In this document: piece by piece, positions 17,933 through 42,111 of the stretch | How positions within the stretch are numbered: the stretch's first letter is position 1 | How the letters are laid out: the number at the start of each line of letters is the position of its first letter | DNA from: Eledone cirrhosa | Lineage: Eukaryota | Length of the DNA stretch: 64,000 nucleotides | Assembly (NCBI GenBank): GCA_964016885.1 | Contig: OZ024763.1 | Coordinates: 22,134,001-22,198,000, forward strand | Direction of reading: 5' to 3' | Position numbers and translations under genes: made by a program | The notes under the pieces: generated by a model | Database searches by the model: none | Told to the model about the DNA's origin: nothing | The model's input: the letters and a program-made list of their open reading frames with translations, nothing else

Positions 17933-17993
17933 TTCATTCTGATGACTGAAGACAGACATAACATCTGCCTTCAAGAAACCACTGGTAAATGAA
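17933..17993 (+). ncRNA. Type I hammerhead ribozyme (paralog of 42052)
   Basis: TTCATT-CTGATGA-CTGAAGACAGA-cataaca-TCTGCCTTCAA-GAAA-CC-act-GG-TA-AATGAA; two stem II mismatches. Confidence 0.8.
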
Positions 17994-19382
17994 ATAATTA
18001 TCTTATGTTGTTTATTACATAACTATATATATATATAATCAATGATATTAAATAAATGGAAACTATATTTATAAAACCATATTTATTCTATAAATATAGT
18101 TTCCACATATTTAATATCATTGAATATTTACTCCAGAAATCTGTCGAGTGCTCTGAATCAGTTATAAACATTTATATTTGTTGTATTTCCAACAAATTAA
18201 ATATCCCTTCTACTTCGGTATTCTAGTTATCGTTTTCTGTTACTAGAGTTTAATGAAACATATATAAATGTTTGAAATAAAACCTCTTGTACAGTGAACT
18301 GCGAATTTGTGTAAATCATAATATAATAAAGAGAGGTGTGTGGGACTGTGTCCTGAATATATTTTTTTATCCCATTAGTAAAATAAGTTGGATTACTTTG
18401 AATAAATAATGAATGAATATTACATAATTTTTGTACTAAATTTCATAGCTGTTGATTAGACATAAATATTCTTATATATAATGATTGTTTATTTTAAGAT
18501 TCACTTCTTTTAAAATTTTCAAATGTCAGTACTTCTGGTTATAATATAATGGACACTATATCACATGGCTTATATAAATATTCATATACTTGCATCGTTA
18601 CATCATAACGTTTATATTTCCGTCGTTAATTTTCTCCTTTTTCATTTTCATTACATTTCACCGTAATACAGTTAATATGTAATATCATCTTTTTTAAATA
18701 TATCATGGATTACTTTACTGATTACATAAGACAGTGTAACACAGTCTCTCTTCAATTTCTGTGTATATTCTCAATTACAATTTTACGTGGTGTATCATAT
18801 CTACATGCATGTATATTTGCATATAATATCAATATGCACACTACACATGCTAGCAGAAAACCACCCGAAGCATGGCTTTTTATCTAATTATATATATATA
18901 TATATATAACTGAACAAAAAGGTAAAACGAACACAAATATATATATATATATATATATATATATATATATATATATATATGTGTGTGTGTTCAAATTGTA
19001 ATGGACCAAACAATACTGGTTTGTATTTATTTTTCTTAATTTATTCTTAAATTGAGTCTAGCAAACCCTACTGTCTGTAGTTAGTATTTTTTTCACCTTA
19101 GCGATTTTGGTCCATTACGATTTCAACACATATATATATATATGTCTGTGTTCGTTTTTCCTTTTTGTTCAGTTATATACGGCTCGGAAAAATCTTTTTC
19201 CTAGAACTAATTTACTGTAATGAGACTATTTTGAGTTTCTAACTCAATACATGCTTTTGATATATGTAGAGAGAGAGAGAGAGAGAGAGAGAGAGAGAGA
19301 GAGACAGAGAGAGAGAGAGAGACAGACAGACAGACAGACAGAAAGAGAGAGGGAGAGAGTAAGAGAAGTAAAGAATACTAAC

Positions 19383-19560
19383 CATGACTCCAAAAGCAGC
19401 TGGCCCAGCGCTGGTCTGGGTCCTCATGGACGGTGGTACCATTTCAGTAGTGAGCTGTTGTGGTAGATTTGCTCCTTTCTTCTTTTCACCCATCAGATAC
19501 ATTGCTAATGCAAACTGCTCTGCATTCAGTTTTCCAGTACTTTTTATATCACATAGTGAC
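19383..19560 (-). CDS. EPS15: EPS15-like exon (end of EH3)
   Basis: tgtAG...GTTAGT; 178 nt; completes the split W codon. SLCDIKSTGKLNAEQFALAMYLMGEKKKGANLPQQLTTEMVPPSMRT...FGVM. Confidence 0.93.
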
Positions 19561-19590
19561 CTACAATAACAAGGACGAAGAAAACATATA

Positions 19591-40500: not shown

Positions 40501-40872
40501 CATGCTCCGTTGGATGTGCAGTGTAAATGTGCGTGAACGACCCAGCATAAATGTGTTGAGAGAGAAACTGTGTCTGAGAGGGATAGAATGTAGTGTACGG
40601 GAGAGGAGACTGAGGTGGTATGGACATGTGATGCGCATGGAGGATGACCGATGGGTGAAGAAGTGCCAGGAAATGCCAGTTGAAGGAAGACGTGGTAGAG
40701 GTAGACCACGAAAAACATGGGCGGAGGTGGTGAGAACAGACCTCAGATCATTGAAGCTCACGGTGGAGATGACGAGGGACCGTGACGAGTGGAGAGATGC
40801 TGTGCTGAATAAGACCCGTCCCACCCTTGCAGGCAGGGAGAAGCGGACGTAAAATGATGATGATGATGATGA
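37600..40872 (+). mobile_element. Near full-length RTE-clade LINE (APE endonuclease, RT, PHD-like finger) with one in-frame stop
   Basis: ORFs 37736-38110 and 38171-40852 are in one frame, split by TAG 38108-10. Motifs TLNVGTL, VQEVRW, AGDFNGH, HRLVV, QFGF, DLEKAFDRV, GVHQGSVLSP, YADD; (ATG)n tail. Confidence 0.95.
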
Positions 40873-42051
40873 TATAGTGTTGACAGCCATACAGGCAACA
40901 AATAAATGAACAAACACACATGGTAAGCAATACACACAATTGCACGTACACATACATACGTAAAAATAAATACATACACATACACATACATATACAAATA
41001 CATACGCATACACATATACATACACACACACACATATACACACACATATATATTACTCCTATTACCCACTCTACTACCCTAAGTATTGAGTACTTTGGTG
41101 CGTTATGGTCCACCTGGTTCCTTACCACTTTTCCTTCGCTATATATATATATGTATGTGTGTGTATATATGTATATGTGTGTGTGTGTGTATATGTATAT
41201 GTGTGTGTGTATGTATATGTGTATGCATACGCATACACATATACATACACACACATATGTATGTGTATATGTATGTGTATATGTATTTGTATATGTATGT
41301 GTATGTGTGAGAGTGTGTGTATGTATTTATTTTTATGTATGTATGTGTACGTGCAATTGTGTGTATTGCTTACCACGTGTGTTTGTTCATTTATTTGTTG
41401 CCTGTATCGCTGTCAACACTATAATAGTCTTTATATTCATTTTTATTCTTATGTGACGGTATTTTTATTATTATATTTTTTCTTATAATTATTTGTGTGT
41501 GTGAGTATGTAGGTGTGTGTACATATTTCTATATTTGTGCATGCGTATGTATGCGTGTATATATGTGTGTATGTATGTGTATGTATGTACGTGTGTATAT
41601 ATGTATGATTGTGTGTATGTATGTATGTGTATGTATATATGTATGTATATGTATGTGTATATATATATATATATATATGTGTATATATATATGCATGTGT
41701 GTGTATGTATGTATATATGTTTATGTGTATATATATGCATGTATATGTGTGTGTGTGTGTGCATGTTTGTGTATTTGTATGTATGTGTATGTATGGATAT
41801 GTTGATAATTATGTGTGTATGTATGTATGTGTATATGTATGTGTATGTATATATATACACATATATGTGTGCGTGTATATGTGTGTGTGTGTGTATGTAT
41901 ATATATATGTGTATGTATATAATTGTGTGTGTGTGTGTGTGTGTTTGCATGTGTGTTTATTTTTCCTTTCCTTCTTCCTTTTCCAGCCTCACTTTCACAT
42001 AGATTATATTTTTGTTTTTAAAATCCAATGCCAATAAATACACCAGGATTT

Positions 42052-42111
42052 TTTCATTCTGATGATTGAAAGCAAAATCTTTTGCTTTTAAGAAACCACT
42101 GGTAAATGAAA
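42052..42111 (+). ncRNA. Type I hammerhead ribozyme
   Basis: Stem I TTTCATT/AATGAAA; CTGATGA; 11-bp stem II TTGAAAGCAAA-atct-TTTGCTTTTAA; GAAA; stem III ACC-act-GGT; GUA cleavage triplet. Confidence 0.85.

What the first reader, a model, noticed from the sequence alone, without database searches (positions are those of the whole stretch)
17933..42111. Two paralogous hammerheads (17933 and 42052) with compensatory changes in stem II
Seen: both have identical CTGATGA, GAAACC-ACT-GGTA and TTCATT/AATGAA stem I, and a shared downstream tail (ttatgttgtttt..acataac) ending at (TA)n. Stem II differs but keeps pairing: pairs 6 and 10 are G-C in one and A-T in the other, and the loops differ. The 42052 copy has no core or stem defect. 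Inference: covariation suggests selection on ribozyme structure in the source elements.
Basis: partly seen in the sequence, partly recalled or inferred. Interest (0 to 1): 0.75.

Follow-up and report, generated by a model that had tools for sequence, protein, structure and literature searches.

The report
Penelope-element hammerheads from two sister families
These two self-cutting-RNA motifs are leftover tail ends of a known kind of jumping gene that has thousands of copies in this genome, and their matching base changes were inherited from parent element lineages in which the motif was likely kept working, while the inserted copies are decaying.

Summary
Both sites are type I hammerheads, and pairs 6 and 10 of stem II switch between G-C and A-U. 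They are two separate 5'-truncated insertions of Hydra-clade Penelope-like retrotransposons (PLEs) in (TA)n. A tight pattern finds 2,074 copies in the genome. A full-length relative has the layout inverted arm, pLTR, RT plus GIY-YIG ORF, pLTR, and carries the Hydra motifs. The covariation is a subfamily difference, from about four switches, two with sampled intermediates. In 76 copies not selected on the core, the 11 invariant core sites show 0 shared and 22 private changes, against 26 and 48 elsewhere (p=0.0006). So the source lineages were constrained and the inserted copies decay neutrally. No excess of element 5' ends lies at the cut site. Cleavage is untested. Hammerheads with covariation in PLEs are published, as is an octopus Hydra family. 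The scan's earlier notes reached the same class on other DNA of this genome.

The parts
17902..18023 (+). Copy A: about 120-bp 5'-truncated 3' end (pLTR fragment) of a Hydra-clade PLE, A-type subfamily, between (TA)n runs, without the long tail
   Evidence: homology to full units from 17911
17933..17993 (+). Hammerhead A (type I; predicted cut after A17987); pair 1 C.A and pair 7 A.C mismatches inherited from its subfamily
   Evidence: the same core-to-stem-III sequence stands at 4 other loci among the 100 listed
18003..18023 (+). 3' hairpin and element end of copy A; inferred first reverse-transcription start site
   Evidence: fold; end point shared by many copies; role inferred from PMC11167929
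37081..37549 (+). Upstream piece of the same family's 3' UTR, likely part of insertion B, separated from it by an RTE-like LINE
   Evidence: 75-79% to full units; LINE ORF 38111-40852
40873..41053 (-). Inverted fragment of the family's 3' UTR beside insertion B
   Evidence: 87% over 183 nt
41140..42140 (+). Copy B: about 1 kb microsatellite-rich 3' UTR/pLTR of the B-type family, ending at (TA)n, without the long tail
   Evidence: 75-82% over about 1 kb to units L035 and L086
42053..42110 (+). Hammerhead B (type I; predicted cut after A42104)
42120..42140 (+). 3' hairpin and element end of copy B; inferred first reverse-transcription start site

Best explanation
Both motifs are the hammerhead-bearing 3' ends of two sister subfamilies of Hydra-clade Penelope-like retrotransposons, and their compensatory differences arose in the parent lineages, where the hammerhead likely had to stay able to cut. 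Shown: family identity, element layout, two 3' end points, constraint on shared changes and neutral decay of inserted copies. Inferred: the element protein nicks (TA)n and starts reverse transcription about 36 nt or about 100 nt downstream of the cut site; early stops give short copies such as A and B. Inferred: the hammerhead is a poor monomer and would cut only as a dimer through its palindromic stem III, or with protein help, for example in pLTR-ORF-pLTR transcripts, where it would free the element RNA from a longer precursor. The RNA that gets copied is mostly uncut.
For: 2,074 tight matches, 4,153 matches to the 3' end, 192 A-type, and 9,060 loose matches with some double counts. L082 is a complete unit: inverted tailed arm, pLTR with hammerhead and tail, ORF, second pLTR 3.9 kb on, then (TA)n. 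The ORF has RWK (L092, L093), DKT, YRDD, CxCX5C, no CCHH, and C-terminal CxxC and CxH, the Hydra features in PMC8557442 section 11. 40 of 44 outward-facing pairs carry the roughly 65-nt tail on exactly one arm, the PLE signature. Core: 0 shared and 22 private changes against 26 and 48 elsewhere, p=0.0006 at a threshold of 3 copies, 0.006 at 4, 0.02 at 5. Stem II: shared pair types keep/break 6/2 against rare 6/18, p=0.03. N7 is the only core site with shared variants, C and G; PMC2837043 names it the one core position that may vary. An A-type ORF is 79% identical to the B-type protein (393 of 495 aa) and differs at 54 of 134 fourfold sites, yet the core is the same. A more distant relative (63% aa) has a rewired but paired stem I (L238).
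Against: No cleavage or expression was shown. Only about four switches underlie the stem II covariation, and pairs with double-sided change are not beyond shuffles (67 of 500). Lineage-level breaks exist: pair 7 A.C in 14 of 178 copies, a stem I break in 23 of 178, and pair 1 unpaired in 36 of 60. G10.1-C11.1 is absent. There is no excess of 5' ends at the cut site: about 26 of 100 listed, against about 26 of 100 and about 43 of 93 at the neighbouring positions (eye counts). The L232 ORF lies 6.7 kb from its hammerhead, so the link is inferred. B-B comparisons already differ at about 19% of fourfold sites, which weakens that argument (about 0.07 for 11 sites if all of it is subtracted; hand arithmetic). 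'Shared' alleles are a proxy for lineage-level changes, not a tree reconstruction. In the anole PLE, cleavage was not needed for insertion in vitro.
Confidence: 0.85

Rival explanations
1. Same PLE origin, but the fold is kept as a protein-binding or reverse-transcription signal and is not needed for catalysis.
For: The non-catalytic 3' hairpin and tail are as conserved as the core. No fossil of cleavage among 5' ends. Hammerhead mutants did not affect insertion in vitro in PMC11167929. No G10.1-C11.1 pair.
Against: The shared changes follow catalytic rules: N7 varies, the 11 invariant sites do not, and no shared H17 variant occurs. The related anole motif does cleave when protein is added.
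Confidence: 0.2
2. The paired changes come from mutational hairpin correction (template switching in an imperfect inverted repeat) and not from selection.
For: These elements invert and switch template often (short inverted pairs). Pairs 2 and 6 have no multi-copy intermediate on the path between families.
Against: Pairs 7 and 10 have one-sided intermediates carried by several copies (A.C; G-U), window copy A among them. Correction does not explain the invariance of the single-stranded core.
Confidence: 0.1
3. The two genomic copies are host-domesticated ribozymes under selection at these positions.
For: Both have intact cores and lie on the + strand; an Ig-like frame lies on + at 1150-1404 (below Pfam cut-offs).
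Against: 59 of 76 unselected complete copies also have an intact core. Private changes hit the core at 2.6% per site against 1.4-2.4% in stems. At least five other hammerhead motifs lie in the window.
Confidence: 0.03
4. They are non-LTR retrozymes (non-autonomous tandem hammerhead repeats).
For: Copy A is short and non-coding. Retrozymes derive from PLE pLTRs (bioRxiv 10.64898/2026.07.22.740005).
Against: No tandem array covers either site. The upstream sequence runs into the 3' UTR and ORF of an autonomous-type PLE.
Confidence: 0.02

Closest known systems
Hydra clade of Penelope-like elements, including Hydra-1_Obim of Octopus bimaculoides (Craig et al. 2021, PMC8557442)
   Same: C-terminal GIY-YIG, RWK, DKT, CxCX5C, no CCHH, CxxC and CxH, (TA)n targets, a 3' hammerhead with a palindromic stem III (acca-a-tggt there, acca-c-tggt here), and often an unpaired first pair of stem II.
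   Different: Different families. Stem I, stem II and H17 differ from Hydra-1_Obim. The unit is about 3.9 kb with a long microsatellite-rich 3' UTR, against under 3 kb as a rule. pLTRs are present. The tail is about 65 nt against 30-40. Protein similarity to Hydra-1_Obim was judged by eye from the supplement text, not aligned.
Minimal hammerheads of metazoan PLEs (Cervera and De la Pena 2014, PMC4209133)
   Same: [quoted passage not shown]
   Different: G10.1-C11.1, highly conserved there, is absent here. Octopus families did not appear in the parts I read (2 of 4).
Poseidon element of Anolis (Frangieh et al. 2024, PMC11167929)
   Same: Two 3' end points bounding a tail, AT-rich targets, hammerhead just upstream.
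   Different: Another clade. There the ORF starts inside the hammerhead; here it starts about 270 nt downstream of it.
Dolichopoda pDo500 satellite hammerheads (PMC2837043)
   Same: Precedent for footprinting: conserved core, variable U7, compensatory stem changes.
   Different: Tandem satellite DNA and not dispersed retrotransposon ends.

Membership tests
Type I hammerhead ribozyme (PLE type) | Core CUGANGA, GAAA and UH in type I order | tested here: met
Type I hammerhead ribozyme (PLE type) | Three helices able to pair around the core | tested here: met
   Minimum-energy fold of both isolated motifs; 91% of cells paired in 60 copies. Copy A loses the fold in 100-nt context.
Type I hammerhead ribozyme (PLE type) | Short palindromic stem III allowing a dimer | tested here: met
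   Self-duplex -8.2 against hairpin +0.4 kcal/mol; some C-type copies are less palindromic
Canonical hammerhead / min-HHR consensus of PMC4209133 | G10.1-C11.1 pair | tested here: not met
   C.A in A, U-A in B; unpaired in 36 of 60. Many published Hydra hammerheads also lack it.
Rfam hammerhead families | Match to an Rfam model | tested here: not met
   No hammerhead hit at E<=10
Type I hammerhead ribozyme (PLE type) | Self-cleavage after H17 | not testable with these tools
   Indirect genomic test negative
Hydra-clade PLE | Single ORF, RT with C-terminal GIY-YIG | tested here: met
   L082, L083; motifs read directly; Pfam RVT_1 only E=0.009, below cut-off
Hydra-clade PLE | RWK and DKT motifs | tested here: met
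   RWK in L092 and L093 (a stop replaces W in L082); DKT in L082
Hydra-clade PLE | CxCX5C linker, no CCHH, C-terminal CxxC and CxH | tested here: met
Hydra-clade PLE | (TA)n targets, pLTRs, inverted arms, one-sided tail, 3' hammerhead | tested here: met
   40 of 44 pairs
Hydra-clade PLE | Generally under 3 kb (descriptive) | tested here: not met
   3.9 kb between the two hammerheads of L082
Hydra-clade PLE | Placement in the RT phylogeny | not tested
   No reference set was held as tool sequences
Non-LTR retrozyme | Short head-to-tail tandem units without an ORF | tested here: not met

The most novel reading that the evidence does not exclude
This genome gives a population-genetic demonstration that the catalytic core of a PLE hammerhead is under purifying selection in active lineages, though the templates that get copied are uncut. 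Cleavage would then be a required, regulated step (dimer- or protein-gated) of the Hydra PLE cycle. The young N7=G subfamily and the stepwise A-to-B series are ready substrates for the test.
Probability: 0.5. Interest if true: 0.5.

Novelty: new member of a known kind. Interest (0 to 1): 0.25.

Why it matters
The two sites are ordinary debris. The family is useful because the role of hammerheads in endonuclease-positive PLEs is open: PMC8557442 calls it unclear and allows that they only parasitise PLEs, and PMC11167929 found cleavage dispensable in vitro. Thousands of copies in several subfamilies let lineage-level constraint be separated from decay after insertion. The pattern favours conserved catalysis.

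Tried and rejected
Rfam: only microsatellite-driven miRNA hits among the 150 of 226 rows shown window-wide, and no hammerhead at the two sites. ORFs lying between inverted hammerhead pairs were first suspected as the parent, but six were nested LINE proteins or pieces and three had no Pfam match; the parent was found through an endonuclease fragment in L035. A terminal-inverted-repeat DNA transposon was rejected because the arms are unequal and one-sided in the tail. Naiad was rejected: the endonuclease is C-terminal and a full hammerhead is present. One element spanning 17933-42111 was rejected: no ORF of this family lies between the sites. A genomic fossil of cleavage was not found. Sequencing runs: no RNA holder listed, so no reads were laid. 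No tree was built; one search is a minimum spanning network of four pairs. PMC544870 gave nothing useful on G10.1-C11.1. R-scape was not available. Scan look-ups by sequence and by place returned nothing.

Full report
Observation. They share stem I, the core, stem III and a 3' hairpin, and end at (TA)n. In stem II, pairs 6 and 10 are G-C in copy A (17933) and A-U in copy B (42053). Pair 7 is an A.C mismatch in A and G-C in B, and pair 1 is C.A in A and U-A in B. Each isolated motif folds into the hammerhead as its minimum-energy structure (z -0.9 for A, -2.1 for B). In about 100 nt of context B keeps the fold and A does not. Rfam has no hammerhead match.

It is a repeat family. The pattern of stem I, core and stem III matches 2,074 times in the 3.0-Gb genome, against 0 for the reversed control. 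The 34-nt 3' end matches 4,153 times, an A-type pattern 192 times, and a looser core pattern 9,060 times with some double counts. Many copies form outward-facing inverted pairs. Copies end at one of two points: right after the hairpin, as A and B do, or about 65 nt further on. Of 44 outward-facing pairs in the fetched loci, 40 carry the extension on exactly one arm. This is the PLE 'tail' signature described in PMC8557442, which PMC11167929 ties to two reverse-transcription start sites.

The parent element. Upstream of the motif, beyond a long microsatellite-rich 3' UTR, locus L035 holds the end of a GIY-YIG endonuclease. All 150 candidates scored with it were 90-100% identical. L082 is a full unit: inverted tailed arm, pLTR with hammerhead and tail, 5' UTR, a frameshifted and stop-broken ORF, a second pLTR 3.9 kb on, and (TA)n. 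The protein has RWK (L092, L093), DKT, YRDD, a CxCX5C linker, no CCHH, and C-terminal CxxC and CxH. These are the features that define the Hydra clade. The published list includes Hydra-1_Obim, whose hammerhead has a similar palindromic stem III but different stems I and II. A-type copies are tied to sister ORFs: 393 of 495 aa identical in L232, and 48 of 57 in an inverted fragment beside a hammerhead identical to copy A in L234. The host is probably an octopus; this rests on that similarity and on earlier AI notes. In the window, copy A is about 120 bp between (TA)n runs. Copy B is about 1 kb of 3' UTR with a further piece at 37081-37549 beyond a LINE. No ORF of this family lies between them.

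Covariation. From the first 230 loci plus the window I parsed 235 matches, 185 of them unique complete motifs, and kept 178 after dropping 7 with indels or poor anchors. Pair 6 is A-U 134 / G-C 42; pair 7 is G-C 121 / A-U 35 / A.C 14; pair 10 is A-U 123 / G-C 39 / G-U 8; pair 2 is U-A 170 / C-G 3. On 60 sequences (59 hand-picked from the 138 distinct motifs for subfamily spread, plus window copy A), 91% of cells pair. The covariation score (0.192) and the cells with double change (65) exceed all 500 shuffles, but the number of pairs with double change (6) does not (67 of 500). That control ignores relatedness, and the signal comes from about four switches. A haplotype network links A-type and B-type through one-sided intermediates at pairs 7 and 10, and window copy A is such an intermediate. 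Its core-to-stem-III sequence recurs at 4 of the 100 loci listed, so its mismatches are inherited.

Where selection acted. I used 76 complete copies from loci found by the 3' end or by the protein, so not selected on the core. Alleles in at least 3 copies were taken as lineage-level. The 11 invariant core sites have 0 such alleles and 22 private changes; the other 43 sites have 26 and 48 (Fisher p=0.0006; 0.006 and 0.02 at thresholds 4 and 5). In stem II, shared pair types keep/break pairing 6/2, and rare ones 6/18 (p=0.03). N7 takes T, C and G at lineage level (G comes from the core-selected set). Private changes hit the core at 2.6% per site and the stems at 1.4-2.4%, and 59 of 76 copies keep an intact core. 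Inserted copies therefore decay without constraint, and an intact core in the window is the common state. The A-type and B-type ORFs differ at 54 of 134 fourfold sites while the core is unchanged. This is weakened by the 6.7-kb gap in L232 and by about 19% difference between B-type copies. A more distant family in L238 keeps the core with a rewired stem I. Against strict constraint: shared breaks at pair 7 and in stem I, and no G10.1-C11.1 pair, which many published Hydra hammerheads also lack.

Mechanism. Shown: layout, end points and constraint pattern. Inferred from PMC11167929 and PMC4209133: nicking of (TA)n, internal priming at the hairpin or at the tail end, early termination or inversion, and weak monomer activity. 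Stem III is unstable alone (+0.4 kcal/mol) and stable as a self-duplex (-8.2), so cutting would need a second copy or protein help. If cut RNA were often copied, element 5' ends should pile up just after H17. They do not: about 26 of 100 listed (114 total) at the site, about 26 of 100 (107 total) one base before, and about 43 of 93 one base after (eye counts; the last is inflated by TA microhomology). So the template is mostly uncut, as in the anole system. The most likely role is gated processing of precursor transcripts; this step is untested.

Novelty and sources. PLE hammerheads, their covariation and an octopus Hydra family are published. Searches found no paper on these particular families, and the stem III motif was not found in the PMC8557442 supplement (line breaks could hide it). 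Repbase and Dfam were not available. What I saw: PMC4209133, parts 1-2 of 4; PMC11167929, parts 1-2 of 4; PMC8557442, abstract, passages, sections 11 and 12, supplement searches and part 2 of 59; bioRxiv 10.64898/2026.07.22.740005, abstract and Results part 1 of 2 (supplements not seen; they may list such families); PMC2837043 and PMC544870, passages. Hammerhead numbering and the set of 11 invariant sites are from general knowledge, in line. The two earlier scan notes on this genome were read after my classification and agree with it. Verdict: real, correctly interpreted, new members of a known kind; interest 0.25.

Noticed in passing
window 42205-42375: A second hammerhead family directly after copy B, as an outward-facing inverted pair (cores at -42275 and +42310), with a palindromic stem III and a long stem II.
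   Followed up: partly
window 49834 (+), 54527 (-), 54764 (-), 55090 (-)/55096 (+): Further hammerhead motifs of other families; the 55096 copy has an inverted partner and a tail on one arm only.
   Followed up: partly
window 53300-53402, 20420-20545, about 206-270: Palindromic mini-elements that are 5'-truncated inverted pairs of a hammerhead family with a long, monomer-stable stem III; 166 genome matches with a core upstream, many by chance junction.
   Followed up: partly
   Followed up: partly
L201-L206, L240-L245 (G000 C1): A young subfamily with N7=G and near-identical hammerheads; one variant differs from window copy B only at N7 between the core and H17.
   Followed up: partly
L248:4899-7646(-): An open 916-codon frame of another Hydra-type PLE, 46% identical over the RT region, with long insertions.
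   Followed up: partly
L152, L153, L147, L139, L161, L168: Several inversion or truncation junctions fall inside the stem III palindrome, which suggests that it promotes template switching.
   Followed up: no
window 1150-1404 (+): Possible Ig-domain exon, E about 2e-4, below Pfam cut-offs.
   Followed up: partly
window 38111-40852 (+): Long open RTE-like LINE frame with RT and PHD domains, inserted into the 3' UTR of insertion B.
   Followed up: partly
window 48913-49517: Inverted, decayed fragments of a distant Hydra-like ORF (33-36%), upstream of the 49834 hammerhead.
   Followed up: no
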